A stretch of DNA of 26,277 bases from a virus (Duplodnaviria > Caudoviricetes). The notes under the pieces are model-generated. The model searched no databases and was not told the origin of the DNA. It saw only the letters and a list, made by a program, of their open reading frames with translations. The stretch's first letter is position 1. Each line of letters opens with the position of its first letter. The translations under genes were made by a program, and so were the position numbers. The stretch lies in the IMG/VR virus record IMGVR_UViG_3300002091_000103, positions 1-26,277 of that record. The stretch is one strand, 5' to 3'. Shown here piece after piece: positions 1,453 to 26,277 of this stretch.

Positions 1453-1734
1453 TTAGAATGGCAGGTCGTCGGCCATGCTGTCAAAATTAGCCGCAGGGCG
1501 TTTCGCCTGTGGCCGTGGATTGGGCACACCGCCGTCATCACGTGGTTTAGGATCGTTTAAATAGCCCCACCCGTCCCATCCGCCTTCTTTTAAGGGGATA
1601 GTGTCCAGCTTGAGCATTGGGCCGTTAGAAGTTTCAATAATCGATCCAATACGTGTGTACCGATTTTTTTTCATGCCCTCCGCATTGGTGTATGAGCCTG
1701 TGATAACGCTGATTTCTTTGAGTAACTTAGACAT
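1453..1734 (-). CDS. SSB-like single-stranded DNA-binding protein
   Basis: Acidic C-terminal tail ...SMADDLPF resembles the SSB-Ct motif DDDIPF. Lies in the erf/exonuclease module. Confidence 0.65.
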   Translation of the reverse strand: MSKLLKEISVITGSYTNAEGMKKNRYTRIGSIIETSNGPMLKLDTIPLKEGGWDGWGYLNDPKPRDDGGVPNPRPQAKRPAANFDSMADDLPF

Positions 1735-2341
1735 TGAATTTCCTTAAAATTTCTACTTTCTTACTAACATCATCTAAAAATTGGGTAATTTCTAGTTCTA
1801 ACATCTTTACATAAGTGGGATCGTATTCAACCTTGACCACCAATATTTGCAAATTCTCGGGAAACCTTGGGTCAAAACTCACAAAATCACACCATTCCCG
1901 CCCAGTACACGCCATTTGCCACATCATTTGCGGTATGTATTTAGCAGGCGCTTTGCCACTTAACAAATATTCCATGTGGGTTTTGGATTCTGGGCACTTG
2001 ATCTCAACCAGGCCATTCTTGCCCACCAATCCGTCTGGGCTTGCGCCTGACATTTCAATGGTTGGATGGTCAATAAATCCCACCTCATCCACAAACACGC
2101 CACGCTTTAACTCATAGGCTTGTCTGGCCATTGGTTCGGTTTCTGTGCCCCATTGCATTGCGGCGTTGCTATAAAACTCCGATTGCTTGTTGGTCAGACG
2201 CTCTAAAATCAATTGTGTGGCGTAATTGTCTCGGCTGGCACTTGCGCCTGTTTTGGTCTTGGCTATTACGTCAGCTACTCGACTGGCCGTAACTCGACCA
2301 AGTCTTTGTTGATGCCATGCTTCTGTTCGTTGTTCAATCAT
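1727..2341 (-). CDS. YqaJ-like / lambda-exonuclease family protein
   Basis: Motifs QRTEAWHQQRLGRVTAS, AMQWGTETEP, GASPDGLV, LVEIKCP, YIPQMMWQM, WCDFVSFDPR. Start placed at MIEQ (2341). Confidence 0.92.
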   Translation of the reverse strand: MIEQRTEAWHQQRLGRVTASRVADVIAKTKTGASASRDNYATQLILERLTNKQSEFYSNAAMQWGTETEPMARQAYELKRGVFVDEVGFIDHPTIEMSGASPDGLVGKNGLVEIKCPESKTHMEYLLSGKAPAKYIPQMMWQMACTGREWCDFVSFDPRFPENLQILVVKVEYDPTYVKMLELEITQFLDDVSKKVEILRKFNV

Positions 2342-2456
2342 CGTGATCTTCCTCAATGTTTTCATAATGTCCGCAAATAGCACAATGCAAATGTCTGCGG
2401 GTCTCAGTTATCTCCAACTCACCCAATGGGCAAACTGGGCATGAAATATCATCCAT
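2334..2456 (-). CDS. small Zn-ribbon protein (40 aa)
   Basis: MDDISCPVCPLGELEITETRRHLHCAICGHYENIEEDHDD*. Two CxxC motifs, overlaps erf stop and exonuclease start by 8 nt each. Confidence 0.65.
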   Translation of the reverse strand: MDDISCPVCPLGELEITETRRHLHCAICGHYENIEEDHDD

Positions 2457-3021
2457 TTAAAAGTCCTTTCAATTCATCTTTTACTTTAACAACCATGTCT
2501 TCCCATTGTTTTTCGCTGTGGCAAGCCTGAAACGCTATTTTGTAACTAGCAAATAATTGTTCTGTTGTTTCACATTCACGCATTTTGTCAATCAATAATC
2601 CTAGCTTTTCAGGCTCTACGTGGCTTTTGATGGGTAAACTGGGCTTTTGTTTGGATGCCTGGTTGCCGTCATCGTCTTCAGGAGCTATGCCACAAGCGGC
2701 CATTAAGCTATAACGGCGAGCATAAGTTAAAGCTGAGGCGTAACCTTGAGGATCGTGCTTGATAGCAGGAAAGTGAAGGAGACCGCATTCGAGCATTTCA
2801 CCTGATTCGTGAATAAAGATTGTTTCAAGAATGATGCCGTTTTCGCAATCGTAAGTTTTCTGTAAGAGATAAATCCCATTGTCATTTAAAGCGTCTATAA
2901 CCGCCTCCACGCACCCTGCTAGGTCAACGTACCTAGATTTAAAATGAGGGTTCACAGACTGCTTTAAAGCAGGATTAAACGCCTTCTGTGCTTTAACAAG
3001 TGCTGTTGCTATTTCTTTCAT
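2449..3021 (-). CDS. erf: ERF-family single-strand annealing protein
   Basis: Motifs NPHFKSRYVDL, IHESGE, DPQGYASALTYARRYSLMAACGIAPEDDDGN are the ERF signature. Confidence 0.93.
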   Translation of the reverse strand: MKEIATALVKAQKAFNPALKQSVNPHFKSRYVDLAGCVEAVIDALNDNGIYLLQKTYDCENGIILETIFIHESGEMLECGLLHFPAIKHDPQGYASALTYARRYSLMAACGIAPEDDDGNQASKQKPSLPIKSHVEPEKLGLLIDKMRECETTEQLFASYKIAFQACHSEKQWEDMVVKVKDELKGLLNG

Positions 3022-3212
3022 ACGTAATCCTTAGTTATTTCTTTGATTTCTTCAATTGTTGATTCAAGTTCTTGTCTTAAAAACTCAACTTCAGCACATA
3101 AGCGCTCGGTCTGTGATTTGTAATAGCCACATTGAAATGCCAGGCTATCGTTAAGTTGATAATTTGACATTGCCTCTAAGCAAGCTGTTTCGATACGTTT
3201 AAATTCATTCAT
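3018..3212 (-). CDS. hypothetical coiled-coil protein
   Basis: ORF track, GGAG RBS, ATGA overlap with erf. Confidence 0.65.
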   Translation of the reverse strand: MNEFKRIETACLEAMSNYQLNDSLAFQCGYYKSQTERLCAEVEFLRQELESTIEEIKEITKDYV

Positions 3213-3380
3213 TTATGCTCTCCAGTAAAAAACATCTAACAACATAACCGCAAAACCTAAGATACTGACCAGGGTCATTGTGATTTCTAGTGTGTTTGCT
3301 TTGTGGTAAAACTTGATGATTGAAGCGCCATACTCCATAGTGTTAGGAAAGGCTTCGTTTAATGTTCTGTGATACTTCAT
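3213..3380 (-). CDS. hypothetical protein with C-terminal TM segment (55 aa)
   Basis: MKYHRTLNEAFPNTMEYGAS...LVSILGFAVMLLDVFYWRA*. AGGAG RBS. Confidence 0.65.
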   Translation of the reverse strand: MKYHRTLNEAFPNTMEYGASIIKFYHKANTLEITMTLVSILGFAVMLLDVFYWRA

Positions 3381-3487
3381 GGCTTTAAATCTCCTGTTGC
3401 GATTAAGGCTTGATTGATTATGTGTAGGGGGTGAGGAATGCCAACCTTTACCTCATCAAGGATTAGGTTGGCTTGTTGTTTAGACAT
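3377..3487 (-). CDS. hypothetical peptide (36 aa)
   Basis: MSKQQANLILDEVKVGIPHPLHIINQALIATGDLKP*. Overlaps both neighbours. Confidence 0.55.
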   Translation of the reverse strand: MSKQQANLILDEVKVGIPHPLHIINQALIATGDLKP

Positions 3488-3668
3488 TTTTTAAATCTAT
3501 GCGTTTAAATAAATCTGCTTGTTTGCTAGATTCGCATTTAACGCATTTATAAGAATCTATTTTGAATTCTTCCCAATTTGTAGACATTGGGGTTCTCAGT
3601 AAATTACGACCACACGCTGTTTTGCTTGTGAATCCTGAACCATACTTATGTAGATGTGTAACTCTCAT
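3480..3668 (-). CDS. hypothetical protein, first gene of leftward operon (His/Cys pattern)
   Basis: ORF track, TAAGGA RBS. H...C...CxxC arrangement suggests metal binding. Confidence 0.7.
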   Translation of the reverse strand: MRVTHLHKYGSGFTSKTACGRNLLRTPMSTNWEEFKIDSYKCVKCESSKQADLFKRIDLKNV

Positions 3669-3716
3669 TTAATTTCCTTAAAAGACCTCTTAGCGAATTG
3701 CTTAAGGCATGACTGA

Positions 3717-3816
3717 ATGTTAATCAAAATTAACCTTCTTGTGTAAGTATTTACCCTAATATGTTGTATTTATTTAAATGTGTTGTATTTTGGTTAATTC
3801 ATGTTAACATTAACAC
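3717..3816. promoter_or_regulatory. divergent promoters with two GTTAA-N6-TTAAC operator-like palindromes
   Basis: Palindromes at 3719-3734 and 3793-3808. Rightward TTGTAT (3783-3788) plus extended -10 TGTTAACAT (3802-3810). Leftward TAACAT -10 at the complement of 3717-3722. Confidence 0.6.
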
Positions 3817-3975
3817 ATGACTAAAGAACAAGCAATCAAATTAGCTGGCAACCAATACAAACTTGCAAAAATACTCGGTATTACAAGGATGGCCGTTTGC
3901 CAATGGAAACAAATTCCCCAAGCAAGGGTATGGCAACTTCAATTGCTACATCCTGAGTGGTTTTTAAATACTTGA
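3817..3975 (+). CDS. cro: Cro-like HTH transcriptional regulator (52 aa)
   Basis: MTKEQAIKLAGNQYKLAKILGITRMAVCQWKQIPQARVWQLQLLHPEWFLNT*. Classic Cro/YdaS pattern LAxxLGITxxAVxQW..IP..R..QL, at the divergence point. Below the ORF-track cutoff. Confidence 0.88.
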   Translation: MTKEQAIKLAGNQYKLAKILGITRMAVCQWKQIPQARVWQLQLLHPEWFLNT

Positions 3976-3991
3976 TTGCTTGTTTTTTGTG

Positions 3992-3997
3992 TATAAT
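3992..3997 (+). promoter_or_regulatory. consensus -10 box (TATAAT) immediately upstream of structured RNA
   Basis: Perfect TATAAT about 7 nt before the first hairpin core. No well-spaced -35 is evident. Confidence 0.5.
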
Positions 3998-4000
3998 TGT

Positions 4001-4164
4001 TTTTGTCTGAGTGGCATCAGACGAAAGACGCGGATTGTTGAACCCCATAGTTTCCTGTGTGGTCTTGTCAGACGGCAAACAATTCTTTTGATTCGCGTCA
4101 ATCGTTTGTTGTTGCTCTCGCCAAGAGCCAAGACCACAGAGTGAATTATGGGGTTTTTGCTTTT
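4001..4164 (+). ncRNA. structured RNA, C4/CI-like antisense/attenuator architecture
   Basis: Hairpin 4001-4010/4017-4026. Long branched stem AACCCCATAG 4041-4050 / TTATGGGGTT 4146-4155 and TGTGGTCTTG 4058-4067 / CAAGACCACA 4129-4138, followed by a U-rich tract. Upstream GACGCGGAT 4027-4035 pairs with loop ATTCGCGTC 4091-4099. Confidence 0.6.
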
Positions 4165-4388
4165 GGACAATCTAAATGCGGTACGTCGGTGGTTTAGATT
4201 GAGATACCCTGAAACACGAGCAAACCAAATCAGGGAACGTGGGCGAATTGCTAGAGCGTGGTGGTTTTAAATAGTCTGGCATAGTGCGATGCGATGACAT
4301 GGCTCCGAAGGGAAAGTCTCGAAAGCATAGAGCGAAACTGATGTTTTGACACGGTTAGGCTATGCTTTGCTCAAACAATCACCAAAGG
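4161..4388 (+). ncRNA. second structured non-coding domain of unknown function
   Basis: Stems CAATCTAAA/TTTAGATTG (4168-4201), CCCTGA/TCAGGG (4207-4235), TGCTAGA/TCTGGCA (4249-4281), AAAGCATAG/CTATGCTTT (4322-4368). No credible ORF. Confidence 0.55.
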
Positions 4389-4432
4389 GAAATACTTAAT
4401 ACATTAGATAAGTTAATTATTAAAGGATTGTT

Positions 4433-4627
4433 ATGCCAATATATTTAAGTAAAGAATTTGAAACTGAAGTAACTGGTGATGGATGTGGTTTTATTTGCAT
4501 TAATCAAAAGAATGATAAAGATGAAGAAGTTGTTATTTGGTTATCTACAAATCAATTTCAAACAATCTTTAATCATGAAAAATTTATATTAAAAGAAGCC
4601 TTAAATGATTCTTCAGAACCCAGTTGA
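4433..4627 (+). CDS. hypothetical protein (64 aa, AT-rich)
   Basis: ORF track, AAAGGA RBS. Confidence 0.65.
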   Translation: MPIYLSKEFETEVTGDGCGFICINQKNDKDEEVVIWLSTNQFQTIFNHEKFILKEALNDSSEPS

Positions 4628-4781
4628 CCATTACGCCAAACTAGCAATGATGCCTGAATGGATTGATTACGTTCGTTATCAGGTTAAACAAATGGAAAAA
4701 GACCAAAGCGGACTGTGGTTAGGTTTAGGCCAAGCAATAGCTGACAGAATTAAGGAATTAAATGAATCCGTACCTAATTAA
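4605..4781 (+). CDS. hypothetical protein (58 aa)
   Basis: MILQNPVDHYAKLAMMPEWIDYVRYQVKQMEKDQSGLWLGLGQAIADRIKELNESVPN*. Bridges two ORFs. Read by hand. Confidence 0.65.
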   Translation: MILQNPVDHYAKLAMMPEWIDYVRYQVKQMEKDQSGLWLGLGQAIADRIKELNESVPN

Positions 4782-5589
4782 AGAACCAACTTGCATTAGC
4801 TTTAGTGGTGGAAGAACATCAGGTTATATGCTTTACAAAATACTTGAGGCTCACAATATGAGCTTGCCAAAAGATGCTTATGTTACTTTTGCTAATACTG
4901 GAAAAGAAGAAGAAGCTACTTTACGTTTTATTCAAAGATGTTCTGATGAATGGAATGTAGATATTCATTGGGTTGAATACACAAATGATGAGCCTACATT
5001 TAAAAAAGTTACATTTGAAACAGCCAGTAGAAATGGTGAACCTTTTGAAGAATTAATTAGAAAAAGACAATATTTACCAAATCCAGTTTCAAGAATCTGT
5101 ACTGCTCAATTAAAAATACGCACAATTAACAAATATTTACGTTCTTTAGGTTGGACGGATCATAATGAAAATGAAGATTGGATGGGAATTCGTGCTGACG
5201 AGCCACGCAGAGCCGCCAAAATTAAAGATAAAAGTAGGATTCCTTTGGCAGTTTCTGGTGTAAGTGCTGGTGATGTAGGCCGTTTTTGGGATTCCCAACC
5301 ATTTAATTTGGAATTACCAAACATTAATGGTAAAACTATGCACGGTAATTGTGATTTATGCTTTTTGAAACCAGGCGCTCAAATATTATCATTGATTCAA
5401 GAAAAACCTGAAAAAGCTGTTTGGTGGGCAAAAATGGAAAAGTTAGGCGCTGAAATAGCATCCAATCCAAGTGGCGCAGTTTTTCGTCAAGATCGACCTA
5501 GTTACGCATCCATGCTTCAATTTACCAAAGAACAAACAATGATGTTTGATATTAATGAAGAAACAATCGCTTGCTTTTGTGGAGATTAA
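4762..5589 (+). CDS. phosphoadenosine phosphosulfate (PAPS) reductase-family / PP-loop protein
   Basis: ISFSGGRTSGY PP-loop, FANTGKE, RICTAQLKI, GIRADEPRR, GNCDLCFLK and C-terminal CFCGD. Confidence 0.85.
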   Translation: MNPYLIKEPTCISFSGGRTSGYMLYKILEAHNMSLPKDAYVTFANTGKEEEATLRFIQRCSDEWNVDIHWVEYTNDEPTFKKVTFETASRNGEPFEELIRKRQYLPNPVSRICTAQLKIRTINKYLRSLGWTDHNENEDWMGIRADEPRRAAKIKDKSRIPLAVSGVSAGDVGRFWDSQPFNLELPNINGKTMHGNCDLCFLKPGAQILSLIQEKPEKAVWWAKMEKLGAEIASNPSGAVFRQDRPSYASMLQFTKEQTMMFDINEETIACFCGD

Positions 5590-6452: not shown

Positions 6453-6673
6453 AATGCCCTGTATGTCACCGCAACGGTAAAACATTAGAAACAAGAACAA
6501 ACAATGATGACTCAAAAAGACGAAGATACGAATGTACGCAAGGACACAGATACAGCACCCGTGAAGTCTTATTTGAAAACCCAGTATGTGAGGAACAAAC
6601 GCTTATTAGAAGTAGTGTCAAGCCTCCAGTGCCAGCATTGTGGCCACTATCAGTCGCAAGCGTGTCACTCTAA
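6449..6673 (+). CDS. Zn-ribbon protein resembling the NrdR N-terminal domain
   Basis: MKCPVC...TLETR...RRRYEC..GHRYSTRE matches the NrdR/Ogr-like ribbon pattern. Confidence 0.7.
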   Translation: MKCPVCHRNGKTLETRTNNDDSKRRRYECTQGHRYSTREVLFENPVCEEQTLIRSSVKPPVPALWPLSVASVSL

Positions 6674-6908
6674 CTGGCATGGCGGTAAGGGTCGAGGCAT
6701 CAAGGCAAGCGATAACTACGTGGCCGCACTATGCCAATCTTGCCATTATGAGGTCGATCAAGGTCACCGATTAACAAAAGATGAACGTCAGACTATGTGG
6801 CTCAACGCACATTTGAAGACGCTCCACTTTCTTTTGATAACCGATCAATGGCCTAGAGGCGTGCCTGTGACCGATTTGTACTTAAAGAAGTACTTACCCC
6901 TTGCGTAG
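6561..6908 (+). CDS. DUF968/DUF1364 (YbcO-like) Zn-binding putative nuclease, start uncertain
   Basis: YVRNKRLL..V..LQCQHCG...QACHSN..GGKGRGIKASD....ALCQSCHYEVDQG. ORF is open from 6504, with possible starts GTG 6561 or TTG 6573. Confidence 0.7.
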   Translation: MKSYLKTQYVRNKRLLEVVSSLQCQHCGHYQSQACHSNWHGGKGRGIKASDNYVAALCQSCHYEVDQGHRLTKDERQTMWLNAHLKTLHFLLITDQWPRGVPVTDLYLKKYLPLA

Positions 6909-15042: not shown

Positions 15043-17003
15043 TTTTCACCCCCAGACGCTTTCAAATTGGCAGAAACAATAACCGCCTTCACCGGATCGG
15101 TTACCACTACTTCAAACACTCGATCTCTTGCTGTACCCAATCTGCGCCAAATGGCACGATTTTGATATTTACCAGTTTGACCAATTGTCACCCAATGTTC
15201 GTTAGACCACGTAGAACCACCATCATCTGACCATCTTAACATTGCTTGCGGTAATGTGGTAGGTGTTGATGGGTTAATGGCAGACTGAATGCCTAAAGTT
15301 AATGTTTCATTGGCCAAAATGGTCAAAGTTGCATTGGGCGCTATGATGTATGGGGAAGAAATAAACAGATTGTTGGTTTGTGATAGACCGGTAAAGCCAA
15401 CGCCAGGCTGGAATTGAATCTGCAATTCTTCAAAATATTGTCTTTGAAAGTCGGCCACCAAATGCGGCGCACGTCTTACCCGTCTGGTGTAGTTGCCGTC
15501 ATCGGTGTACGTATTTTTGTCCAATTCGTAAATCTTACCGTTGGCATAATCCCCAATCAGCACCATGCCTTGAAACAACGCACTACAATTTCCACGGTGC
15601 CGCTGAAAGTTGTTCATTGTGTCAACATACAGCCATTTGTGCCACATACCTGATGCAATGTCAAATGCCCAAGTCAAATTGATGGTAGGAAACGAAACCA
15701 CGTAAACTTCGTGACCTTCTAGCTGATATGTCCACGCTATTGCATCATCAATGTATTGATTGACCAATGTATTTTCTACGGCGTGCGTGGATATGCGTGT
15801 GGGCTTATAGCCTTGCATCATCATTATTTCGCCTTGACCACGGACATTTCGTGATACATAGGCAAATGAATCGCCTAAACGCGAAACGCTAAATTGGGCG
15901 GCAATACCGTGTTGGGTAGAAGTGCCTGGTATTCGCTGAAATGGAAACGGAAACGCACCCACATCTGCCCACACCTCAGAACTAGCCTCACCCATCAAAT
16001 AAACTTCACGGTGATCGACAATCAAAGCCACCAAGTTATCAGGCGCGCCATCCTTGCTCGCAAATGACAATGCTTGACTAACTGGGCTAAGTGCGTCAGA
16101 TGCGCCCCATTGTTGGCTATTTGGTCTTGAATAAACAAAATAGTTGTCAATAATATCTACCGTTGTGCCACCACTAAACGCACCATCATTGGATGGAATC
16201 ACCGTAAAGTTAAGCGCATACATCGTGATTGATGCAACCGTTGTATTGGTAGAAACCGTATATAAATTAAAGCCACCGCTAGGGGTCAAAATGGCCGTCA
16301 CCATCGTGTTTGTGGGTACGCCTGTACCTTGTATGGTCTGACCTAAATAAACCGTTCCTGTGGTCGATAAAGTGGCATTGGTAGTGCCTGCCGTTAATGA
16401 AGCTGTGATCGTAGTGGCCGCACTAGAATTCATTAAAGTGGACGATACCGATTGAGATATATTGACCGTCCAGCTTGTGCCCGATCCAGCCGTAATCACC
16501 GTTTCTTGCGCTACCCCAACACCAAACAAAGCATTTCCAATTGCTATGGTGCCACTTTGTAAATTGCTAACCGTTAGCGTGGTGCCACTAATGGAACCAG
16601 TAAAAATGGCCGTTGAAATGGATGCAATTCGCCATGTATAGCGATAAGTGCCGTCCACAATGTAGACGTTAACGCCATTGTCAGTTACGTTAACCCGTCC
16701 GCTATTGGTGTTAAGAATACCAACAATGGTTGGGCTTAAATTGGATGAAAGCACATAAACATAAGCACCACAAACGGCAATCATTTGTTGGCCACCGCTA
16801 ACTGTACGCATACCGCGCACTTCGGCACCAGCCGGTAAAACCACTTGTGCTATAAGACCTGGCGTTGGATAAAGCGCAATAACCCCACGCTCACCCTGTT
16901 GTTTGGTAGGGTCAACTTCTGGGAAAAAGTTAATACATTCTTGATCGTTTTGGTAGATCGAGTTTGCTGTATAACTTGGGCCTACAAAACCAAAGTCGCT
17001 CAT
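15039..17003 (-). CDS. packaged DNA stabilization / tail hub protein, P22 gp10-like
   Basis: Motifs LYPTPGL, ASKDGAPDNLV, SSEVW..G..FPFQRIPG, RISTHAVE, YQLEGHEVYV, MLRWSDDGG.TWSNE, WRRLG.ARDRVFEV..TDPVK. Confidence 0.9.
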   Translation of the reverse strand: MSDFGFVGPSYTANSIYQNDQECINFFPEVDPTKQQGERGVIALYPTPGLIAQVVLPAGAEVRGMRTVSGGQQMIAVCGAYVYVLSSNLSPTIVGILNTNSGRVNVTDNGVNVYIVDGTYRYTWRIASISTAIFTGSISGTTLTVSNLQSGTIAIGNALFGVGVAQETVITAGSGTSWTVNISQSVSSTLMNSSAATTITASLTAGTTNATLSTTGTVYLGQTIQGTGVPTNTMVTAILTPSGGFNLYTVSTNTTVASITMYALNFTVIPSNDGAFSGGTTVDIIDNYFVYSRPNSQQWGASDALSPVSQALSFASKDGAPDNLVALIVDHREVYLMGEASSEVWADVGAFPFPFQRIPGTSTQHGIAAQFSVSRLGDSFAYVSRNVRGQGEIMMMQGYKPTRISTHAVENTLVNQYIDDAIAWTYQLEGHEVYVVSFPTINLTWAFDIASGMWHKWLYVDTMNNFQRHRGNCSALFQGMVLIGDYANGKIYELDKNTYTDDGNYTRRVRRAPHLVADFQRQYFEELQIQFQPGVGFTGLSQTNNLFISSPYIIAPNATLTILANETLTLGIQSAINPSTPTTLPQAMLRWSDDGGSTWSNEHWVTIGQTGKYQNRAIWRRLGTARDRVFEVVVTDPVKAVIVSANLKASGGEN

Positions 17004-17590
17004 ATCACCTCAGTTTCTTTGTACGATTGACCACAAAGCAAAGTTTTCATGCTTGGCAAACTTAATTCAAATTGTTTGGCTAAATCACTCACTTTTGCAC
17101 CATTTTTTCTAAGTTCTCTTGCTTGCCTAGCTTGCGCCATTGTTAATTTTGCTCTTGGCCCTTTATCACCGCTATAGTCTGGACAACGACCTTTTCTTTT
17201 TTTATCTTCCATGTTGTCTTTATGAGTACCCACCCATAAATGTTTTGGATTACAACAAATCGGATTATCGCAAGTATGCAAAACAAACCCAAATTTATTT
17301 GTAGATTTTGGAGCATTTAAGGTAATGATATTTGGAAAAGCAAGATCAAAAATTACTCGATGAGCAAAATACCCACGATCATTGATCCATGTTTTTCCAT
17401 AACCATCAGCATTTTTGTAACCTTTCCATTCCCAACATTCATTTTCACTACGTTTATCTACTTTACTCCACAATACATCGGGCGTATTTGCTGGTCTTCC
17501 TGCATTGTTTGCTTTTTCACCGTTCTTTTTTCTCCAATAATATGCTTTTGCATACTCACGTTTTTTTTGTTTAATTTTTAGATCATCCAT
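17000..17590 (-). mobile_element. free-standing HNH homing endonuclease-like gene
   Basis: WSKVDK...ECWEWKG...DGYG...AHRV...VLHTCDNPICCNPKHLWVGTHKDNMEDK plus a C-terminal AKLT.. HTH. AT-rich and inserted between gp4 and gp10. Confidence 0.9.
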
Positions 17591-24763: not shown

Positions 24764-24799
24764 AAAAAAGCCACCCCTTTTGAGAGTGGCTCTTTTTTT
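24764..24799 (-). terminator. intrinsic terminator after capsid and decoration genes (possibly bidirectional)
   Basis: Minus strand AGCCACTCTC-AAAA-GGGGTGGCT-TTTTT. A T-tract is also present on the plus side. Confidence 0.8.
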
Positions 24800-25278: not shown

Positions 25279-26277
25279 TTAAGCGGCTACGCGGCAGGCC
25301 AACTCAGGATAGAGTGGTGCCCAACCATATAGCACGTCTAAACGTGTGGGAATCGAATCGTTATTAATTGTGTATTGCATCTTGTTACTCCACCTTTCGG
25401 TGTGGTGCTTCCGCTTCAGGTCGCACTCTAGGACTTCTTTTGTTATATCCTAGTTCAGACTATCGCATCCCTCGTAAGGGTTTTCTCACTTAGTCGTTCA
25501 GGCTGTATTTAAACTTGCCCCTTGTTGTCCACTTCTGGAGTTCCAAGTCAATCAGAGAAAATTTTCTATTAGGTCTTTACCTAAAAGCCGCCAACATTAA
25601 CGGACTACACGCATTGACAATCCAATCTCCTTATCACTAGCTCTACCTGCAAAATGCACACCTTCTGGAAGCTCTAAATCGGCTCATTTCTGTTACTTTC
25701 GGCTTTTGCCTACTGACCACTATTGTGGCGGGAGAAACTCTTCGGATTCTCCTCTCTGTCTTCTTGGGTTATAACAGAGTTCAGACTATCGCATCACCTT
25801 TCGGCGCCATCCCACTTAGTCGTTCAGCCTGCACACCTTTCGGTTGCTTGGCCCTTGTTACCCACTTCTGGGACTCCAAGTCAATCAGGGACGGTTTTCT
25901 ATTTACGCTACTTGTAAATAGCCGCAGTCGTTTACGGCAAGAGTGAAAGCATTCCGGTGCATGATGATGTTTTGTGGGCTAACTGTACCTGTGTTGTTAA
26001 ACGGTGTGACCGTTGAAGCACCAGCATTAGTAACGCTCACGTTCTGGAATTGACCAGCGGTAATGATAGCGGGGCTAACAGTTACCAAAGTCGTGCCAGA
26101 TGTGGCCACAGTCGCGGCGGCGGTAACAACAAAGTTTCTCAACTTGTTAGAACCATACGCTTGACGATTTTGTGGATTGACCGCATACACGTTAGCAATT
26201 TGGATTACATCGCCTTGGTTCAAGTTGCCAGCCGCAGTAGTTGCAGACAAAGCAATTGTAGAAGTTGATGCCCAACC
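25279..26277 (-). CDS. major capsid protein (P22 coat protein family), 5'-partial, spliced: exons 26277-25934, 25684-25600, 25377-25279
   Basis: Joined exons read ...PQNIIMHRNAFTLAV ADLELPEGVHFAGRASDKEIGLSMRVVR QYTINNDSIPTRLDVLYGWAPLYPELACRVAA*. GDVI.IA.V.AVNP, AFTLA and RLDVLYG are P22-coat-family motifs. Confidence 0.9.
25378..25599 (-). ncRNA. group I intron 2 in capsid gene (222 nt, no ORF)
   Basis: 5' exon ends CCGU, pairing with GCGG (U.G at the splice site). Terminal G in GUAACAAGAUG. P3 UUUUCUC/GAGAAAA, P7 GACUA/UAGUC, P8 CCCU-UACG-AGGG. P10 UGUUG pairs with 3' exon CAAUA. Confidence 0.92.
25685..25933 (-). ncRNA. group I intron 1 in capsid gene (249 nt, no ORF)
   Basis: P1 GCCGU/GCGGC with U.G at the splice site. 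P2 CUAUUUAC/GUAAAUAG, P3 CCGUCCC/GGGAUGG, P7 GACUA/UAGUC, P8 CGCC-GAAA-GGUG. Terminal G in GUAACAGAAAUG. Confidence 0.92.

What the first reader, a model, noticed from the sequence alone, without database searches (positions are those of the whole stretch)
25279..25960. Major capsid gene split by two tandem ORF-less group I introns around an 85-nt micro-exon
Seen in sequence: the capsid ORF derails after ...AFTLAV. Removing 25933-25685 (249 nt) and 25599-25378 (222 nt) gives a seamless P22-coat-type C-terminus (GT|A = Val, CGT|CAA = Arg-Gln) ending RLDVLYGWAPLYPELACRVAA*. Both inserts follow a U that forms a U.G pair in P1, both end in G, and both have P3, P7, P8, P9 and P10 helices. Retaining intron 1 stops translation after 9 more codons, and retaining intron 2 places a TAA directly after the exon, so both splicing events are needed for a full-length coat protein. 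Established: most described phage group I introns lie in DNA-metabolism genes (td, nrdB, nrdD, DNA polymerase), with some in terminase, lysin or psbA, and many carry homing endonucleases. Inference: two compact introns in the highly expressed capsid gene of a small podovirus-like phage is unusual, makes virion assembly splicing-dependent, and is invisible to gene callers.
Basis: partly seen in the sequence, partly recalled or inferred. Interest (0 to 1): 0.88.

Follow-up and report, generated by a model that had tools for sequence, protein, structure and literature searches.

The report
Capsid introns with coreless satellite relatives
Two short inserts break this phage's main coat gene and have the anatomy of self-splicing introns, so the phage likely cuts both out of its RNA to make coat protein; close relatives also carry a tiny insert with no catalytic part that likely borrows a neighbouring intron's machinery.

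Summary
Confirmed. Removing 25933-25685 and 25599-25378 gives a coat C-terminus identical over 62 residues to 25 of 77 uninterrupted relatives. Both inserts follow U, end in G and carry P1/P10 guides and a core whose helices covary across 61 family members. Rfam's cut-off misses them (16 bits), and also misses the experimentally spliced BAKA intron. Splicing here is inferred: no usable RNA was found. Capsid-gene introns have precedents (LittleE, Tuc2009, crAss-like phages). New here: the family occupies 15 mapped sites of this one coat gene, is ORF-less there, and favours capsid genes generally. Outside the window, relatives (one 93-95% identical over the coat region) carry a 32-41-nt insert without catalytic core in codon 40. 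All 51 copies sit 34 nt upstream of a full intron, with covarying P1, P10 and an exon tether; two loci hold a full intron at that site. It is likely spliced by the neighbour's core. The window ends before that site. This scan noted coreless capsid mini-introns before on other DNA.

The parts
25934..26277 (-). Coat gene exon, cut by the contig end (about codon 240 to 354 of a 414-residue relative); ends in the U of the 5' splice site of intron 1
   Evidence: Pfam P22_CoatProtein E 6.9e-07, phrog_283, 93% identical to L004
25685..25933 (-). Intron 1, 249 nt, no endonuclease ORF. P10 guide 25929-25926, P1 guide 25925-25921, P3 25894-25888 with 25813-25807, P7 25823-25817 with 25788-25783, terminal G at 25685
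   Evidence: same intron at the same site in 15 of 15 loci
25600..25684 (-). 85-nt micro-exon (last base of a Val codon plus 28 codons)
   Evidence: 100% identical to the matching stretch of the L004 coat protein
25378..25599 (-). Intron 2, 222 nt, ORF-less. P10 guide 25595-25592, P1 guide 25591-25587, P3 25561-25555 with 25487-25481, P7 25497-25491 with 25462-25457, terminal G at 25378
   Evidence: same intron at the same site in 14 of 16 loci
25279..25377 (-). Last coat exon, 32 codons plus stop
   Evidence: the tail of L004 matches Pfam coat positions 381-420 of 423
17000..17590 (-). Free-standing HNH endonuclease gene; a candidate helper for intron spread, no link shown
   Evidence: PHROGs HNH hits; no convincing match to the intron model there

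Best explanation
Both inserts are compact, ORF-less group I introns that likely splice themselves out of the coat-protein mRNA, each with its own catalytic core. Shown in sequence: each pairs its guide with the upstream exon (P1, with the U.G pair at the cut), pairs the next four bases with the downstream exon (P10), holds a P3-P7 core with the guanosine-site pattern, and ends in G. Inferred from established group I chemistry: free guanosine would cut at the 5' site and the upstream exon would then attack after the terminal G; both events are needed for full-length coat protein, and the early in-frame stops would keep ribosomes out of the folded RNA. The two are independent, optional elements of one divergent family that has settled many sites of this gene. 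In relatives one member has likely decayed to a 32-41-nt satellite that keeps only its guides and is predicted to use the core of the intron 34 nt downstream.
For: Exact restoration of the conserved protein. Core covariation. Guides differ by site and fit their own exons: own-exon score exceeds the mean with other sites' exons at 14 of 15 sites. Each intron occurs alone in 9 loci and both together in 5. A model built from the family finds the RT-PCR-verified BAKA intron (28.2 bits, E 7e-07, rough) and ends on its reported terminal G. Family members in other capsid genes carry homing endonuclease ORFs inside the core (6 of 9 antisense ORFs tested match LAGLIDADG).
Against: No spliced RNA or in vitro reaction for this phage. 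Rfam gathering score not reached. P4 shows only four clear pairs and J3/4 is longer than I recall for textbook introns. P10 of intron 1 has a mismatch. Covariation counts are inflated by relatedness of the sequences, and the family was collected with patterns fixed on P7.
Confidence: 0.92

Rival explanations
1. The inserts are group I introns but do not splice unaided: a host or phage protein, or the neighbouring intron, is needed for folding or catalysis.
For: Short P4, imperfect P10 in intron 1; translating ribosomes are reported to aid splicing of bacterial group I introns (PMC3073962, passages).
Against: Each intron occurs alone in 9 loci, so neither needs the other; both hold every core helix.
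Confidence: 0.2
2. The coat gene is dead or the inserts are assembly artefacts.
For: The window is a fragment with one copy of the sequence.
Against: The same inserts stand at the same bases in 15 and 14 other contigs with sequence variation; the exons keep an unchanged protein; stems covary.
Confidence: 0.02
3. The ribosome bypasses the inserts (a hop as in T4 gene 60, recalled) or they are excised at DNA level.
For: A stop codon follows each 5' junction closely.
Against: Junction 1 falls inside a codon; U...G ends, site-matched P1/P10 guides and a ribozyme core are not needed for a hop. In the mini-insert copies I inspected by eye, take-off and would-be landing codons do not match.
Confidence: 0.03
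4. For the satellite in relatives: it is removed by something other than the adjacent core (a freed intron acting in trans, or a protein), or its pairings are relics and those phages make no coat protein.
Against: The tether to the micro-exon tracks synonymous changes (166 of 171 Watson-Crick cells, shuffled maximum 158), which points to ongoing selection and to action in cis; the exons remain conserved.
Confidence: 0.3

Closest known systems
Mycobacteriophage LittleE capsid intron and BAKA/Optimus tail intron (PMC3706429; passages read)
   Same: Group I-type introns in virion genes, splicing shown by RT-PCR; the BAKA intron is 265 nt and ORF-less; my family model finds it and its 3' end; LittleE carries an antisense endonuclease, as do members of this family.
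   Different: One intron per gene; distant in sequence (28 bits against 180-217 for true members, which were in the training set); different hosts; no satellite in the passages I read.
Staphylococcus phage Twort orf142, three group I introns (via PMC10136302, first part read; PMC3073962, passage)
   Same: Several related introns in one gene around very short exons; exon skipping reported there.
   Different: Subgroup IA2; here P7 runs straight into P3 with no P7.1/P7.2 insertion (that IA feature is recalled); skipping the 85-nt exon here would shift the frame.
crAss-like phage major capsid genes with several group I introns (PMC7886860; passages) and Jug phage small introns (PMC12880540; passages)
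   Same: Multiple introns in capsid or other core genes; Jug introns average about 206 nt and splicing of 37 of 76 was supported by metatranscriptomes.
   Different: Large gut phages; crAss introns were found through their endonuclease domains; I did not test whether they belong to this family.
Small putative group I introns of Phialophora SSU rDNA, PaSSU (PMC3160393; first third read)
   Same: For the satellite: tiny inserts with P1, P10 and a pairing to the 3' exon.
   Different: 63-75 nt, said to keep P7 and to self-splice; fungal rRNA; no partner intron. The phage satellite is 32-41 nt, has no P7 and always has a partner.
Engineered group I spliceozymes (PMC4094466; abstract only)
   Same: Show that a group I core can remove a separate intron and join its exons.
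   Different: Artificial, and the ribozyme supplies the recognition sequences; here the satellite carries its own guides.

Membership tests
Group I introns | U.G pair at the 5' splice site within P1 | tested here: met
   Both introns
Group I introns | Terminal G at the 3' splice site | tested here: met
   Junction registers fixed by protein identity
Group I introns | P3-P7 pseudoknot with guanosine-site G-C pair and bulged base | tested here: met
   P3 covaries at 6 of 7 pairs; P7 invariant but selected by my patterns
Group I introns | P4-P5-P6 domain and P8, P9 | tested here: met
   Covariation in all; P4 only four clear pairs
Group I introns | P10 pairing with the 3' exon | tested here: met
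   4 of 4 pairs in intron 2, 3 of 4 in intron 1
Group I introns | Guanosine-dependent self-splicing | not testable with these tools
   Needs an in vitro assay
Group I introns | Ligated exons in RNA | tested here: inconclusive
   No RNA holder listed; eight runs laid were contigs of uncertain kind
Rfam RF00028 (as curated) | Score at or above 50 bits | tested here: not met
   16 bits for intron 2, no hit for intron 1; verified BAKA intron 28.6 bits
Subgroup IA2 (T4, Twort type) | P7.1/P7.2 stems between P7 and P3 (feature recalled) | tested here: not met
   Only three bases separate P7 from P3 in all 61 rows
Other group I subgroups (IB, IC, ID, IE) | Match to subgroup covariance models | not testable with these tools
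Endonuclease-encoding mobile group I introns | Homing endonuclease ORF inside the intron | tested here: not met
   Longest stop-free frames 82 and 40 codons; the antisense 73-aa ORF has no Pfam match; all 26 complete copies at the two sites are 222-253 nt
Group I introns (satellite insert in relatives) | Own catalytic core P3-P9 | tested here: not met
   32-41 nt, no core motif; P1, P10 and terminal G are present

The most novel reading that the evidence does not exclude
This intron family has produced a natural non-autonomous group I intron: a 32-41-nt satellite in coat codon 40 that kept its P1 and P10 guides and terminal G, lost the core, and tethers itself through a 9-10-bp helix to the 34-nt micro-exon so that the next intron's ribozyme splices it first and then splices itself. 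One core would serve two introns, a step from self-splicing towards a separate splicing machine. The satellite lies in relatives; whether the window's own phage has it cannot be seen.
Probability: 0.65. Interest if true: 0.88.

Novelty: new variant of a known kind. Interest (0 to 1): 0.62.

Why it matters
The two window introns alone are a known kind. They matter as markers of a large family (about 740 stored viral stretches by the tool's estimate) that Rfam's cut-off misses, that breaks capsid annotation, and that occupies at least 15 sites of one gene without its own endonuclease there. That makes an open question testable: how group I introns reach new sites. Six of 15 sites end in the same four bases, and two sites 15 nt apart hold 89% identical introns. 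The satellite, if confirmed, would be a natural case of one group I core splicing a second, coreless intron, which I found only as an engineered system. It needs only a 350-nt transcript to test.

Tried and rejected
RNA evidence: no RNA holder listed. Eight of nine listed runs were laid; all were contigs, none spanned the stretch, and the few joins across intron 1 carried other letters at the junction, as intronless relatives would. No evidence either way. Rfam: no match at gathering score in the window. Further family members in the window: none above 13 bits besides the two introns. Endonuclease-bearing or coreless versions at the window's two sites: none among 15 and 16 loci; 2 of the 16 were unrelated intact genes. 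Tree of 29 cores: poorly resolved; cores from one site do not always group, which suggests exchange between copies; it neither shows nor excludes one origin for the sites that share an end motif. Promoter scan: nothing above chance. P1-P2 folding of the window introns alone is not better than shuffles (z -1.3 and -0.9). PMC7431792 was irrelevant. An 11-nt insert upstream of another intron in one contig (L023/L159) could not be explained. Host: not established; one Burkholderiales MAG holds a related coat gene with an intron, a weak hint.

Full report
Observation. The window is a 26,277-base virus record whose end cuts the coat gene. On the minus strand the coat frame runs from the contig end to 25934, is interrupted by 249 nt, resumes for 85 nt, is interrupted by 222 nt and ends at 25279. 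The first piece matches Pfam P22_CoatProtein and phrog_283; downstream genes match head closure, DNA ejection, tail fibre, spanin and endolysin families. I fetched the 80 best of 582 confirmed relatives from a scan that covered 28 of 64 parts of the viral collection, plus three GenBank phages. In 77 of these 83 loci the 3' part of the gene is uninterrupted. The last 62 residues of the in-silico spliced window product are identical in 25 of the 77, differ at one position in 19, and match at 49 of 62 in the worst case. Junction 2 is unique; junction 1 has one equivalent slide and only the stated register gives U before and G at the end.

Group I anatomy. Rfam gives no match at gathering score and 16 bits to intron 2 in a permissive search. 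I therefore built the family. A pattern on the two P7 strands matched 124 stretches in 11 of 64 parts, about 740 estimated in all. An alignment of 61 diverse ORF-less cores, both window introns included, gives 98% of cells paired, 27 of 40 pairs with changes on both sides, 0 of 500 shuffles as high and 41-45% paired in slid registers. P7 is invariant but was fixed by my pattern; relatedness inflates the counts. Guides are site-specific: at 14 of 15 sites an intron scores higher with its own exons than on average with other sites' exons, though the best foreign exon pair often comes close. A model from this alignment finds no third member in the window. It finds the BAKA tail intron at 28.2 bits and ends on position 28,450, the terminal G reported with RT-PCR support in PMC3706429 (passages). 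Rfam gives that intron 28.6 bits, below its cut-off of 50, so the Rfam miss is no refutation. PMC11878797 (passages) also says that current models miss phage variants.

Distribution. Complete scans for anything inserted at the window's two sites returned 15 and 16 loci. All 15 hold intron 1; 14 of 16 hold intron 2 and 2 are unrelated intact genes. The 26 complete copies are 222-253 nt, so none has room for an endonuclease. Both introns stand together in 5 loci and each stands alone in 9. Twelve of the 80 close relatives carry a family member near or in the coat gene. I mapped 15 distinct sites in this gene, with inserts of 215-281 nt; my mapping required U and G at the ends, so that feature is not independent there. 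Of the 124 pattern loci, 36 lie in this coat family. Of 77 of the other 88 whose flanks I scanned, 33 match three other major head families, 7 tape measure, 5 ribonucleotide reductase and 1 portal; the rest were unassigned. Some of those members carry endonucleases: 6 of 9 antisense ORFs tested match LAGLIDADG_1 at E below 0.001 (4 above the curated cut-off), and one sense ORF each matches LAGLIDADG and GIY-YIG. In the species-genome collection only 11 matches came back, all in metagenome-assembled genomes.

How they spread is inferred. Six of 15 sites end in CCGU against 2.4% of all U positions (binomial 9e-07; 6 of 9 among all-GC triplets, 0.002), and introns at two sites 15 nt apart with the same four-base end are 89% identical. 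This fits movement guided by P1 pairing, for which PMC3984707 (passages) says direct evidence is lacking. Against it: intronless alleles at the window's sites often lack CCGU, so the motif may have been fitted after insertion; sites are not independent; and the core tree is unresolved. Homing by a free-standing endonuclease, such as the HNH at 17000-17590, is an untested alternative.

The satellite, found in relatives. Several loci showed a second, tiny break just upstream of an intron. A complete scan for anything inserted in coat codon 40 returned 53 loci. Fifty-one hold a 32-41-nt insert (19 distinct) with no core; all 51 are followed 34 nt later by the start of the codon-51 intron, whose core is seen in 47 and cut by the contig end in 4. 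The other 2 hold a full 226-228-nt intron at the same site with a homologous guide. The metagenome scan gave 28 satellites and 2 full introns in 30 loci, again all with the partner's start, but many are the same contigs. The insert follows U, ends in UUG, and pairs three ways. P1 shows three pair types at one position and P10 four, with every cell paired. A 9-bp tether joins its 3' part to the micro-exon: 166 of 171 cells Watson-Crick, shuffled mean 144, maximum 158; I chose the best register per sequence and it always fell 0 or 1 base after the guide. The exon side varies at synonymous positions. A further variant outside my patterns changes another P1 pair on both sides (L443). The three helices appear together in the minimum-energy fold of L358 (z -3.5). 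The codon-51 intron also occurs without the satellite, in a different sequence type, so the dependence is one-way. My reading: P1 of the satellite docks in the neighbour's core, with the tether and the neighbour's own P1 standing where P2 stems would be; the satellite is cut out, then the neighbour splices itself. This order is inferred and untested, and perfect co-occurrence could also follow from one inherited deletion. Link to the window: L358 is 93-95% identical over the coat region, has both window introns and the satellite; L443 also has all of them; L026 and L027 have both window introns without it. The window ends before codon 40.

Comparison with print. Capsid introns are known from LittleE and Tuc2009 and crAss-like phages (PMC7886860, passages); several introns around short exons from Twort (PMC10136302, first of six parts); abundant small introns from Jug phages (PMC12880540, passages). 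PMC12350094 (passages) concerns group II. An in-frame stop just after the 5' junction is usual (PMC3073962, passages). For a coreless intron served by a neighbour I found only fungal PaSSU inserts (PMC3160393, first third) and engineered spliceozymes (PMC4094466, abstract). Searches returned nothing relevant, in a library that lacks most subscription papers. I read no supplements; the intron tables of PMC11878797 and PMC12880540 might list this family. After I had reached this reading, the scan's own notes showed coreless capsid mini-introns on other genomes, some said to have RNA support, and a large family missed by Rfam. I did not check those claims and do not count them as support.

Verdict. 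Observation confirmed; group I introns, 0.92; splicing unshown here. The window's pair is a variant of a known kind. The family's reach and its satellite raise the interest to 0.62; the satellite mechanism has probability 0.65 and would merit 0.88.

Noticed in passing
L358:2028-2060 and 50 other loci; L443: Coreless 32-41-nt insert in coat codon 40 with covarying P1, P10 and exon tether, always 34 nt upstream of a full intron
   Followed up: yes
L361:1777-2002 and L362 (minus strand): Full-core intron at the same codon-40 site with a homologous guide; likely resembles the satellite's ancestor
   Followed up: partly
L023:1401-1411 (same contig as L159): 11-nt frameshifting insert after coat codon 35, following U and ending in G, upstream of a full intron in codon 48; one contig only, may be an error or an even smaller satellite
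   Followed up: partly
L025:2941-3219 and L079:1976-2256: Closely related introns (88-89%) at two sites 15 nt apart that share a four-base exon end; both have an extra hairpin in the P1 loop
   Followed up: partly
L097, L122, L123, L137, L149, L157: Single-motif LAGLIDADG ORFs on the opposite strand inside the intron core, in other phage genes (mostly another capsid family)
   Followed up: partly
L422:16824-17091 (MW202674.1): Family intron in a GenBank phage, annotated as two coat fragments plus a hypothetical protein
   Followed up: yes
L414, L415, L418 and seven viral loci (L117, L127, L129, L140, L143, L183, L205): Family members in tape measure genes; the three genome loci share a similar upstream exon and lie in gut-type Bacillota genome bins
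   Followed up: no
L416, L420: Family members in two archaeal genome bins (ammonia-oxidiser families by record title); host gene not determined
   Followed up: no
window 17000-17590 and 6504-6908: Two free-standing HNH-type genes
   Followed up: no
window 4762-5589: PAPS reductase-like gene next to RusA; Erf and YqaJ recombination genes at 1727-3021
   Followed up: no
window 3021-4762: 1.7 kb between divergent gene blocks without an ORF of 70 codons or more
   Followed up: no
window 24764-24796 (minus strand): Strong terminator-like hairpin after the gene that follows the coat gene
   Followed up: no
L073:41-250: Family intron at a further coat site near codon 104, not among the 15 mapped
   Followed up: no
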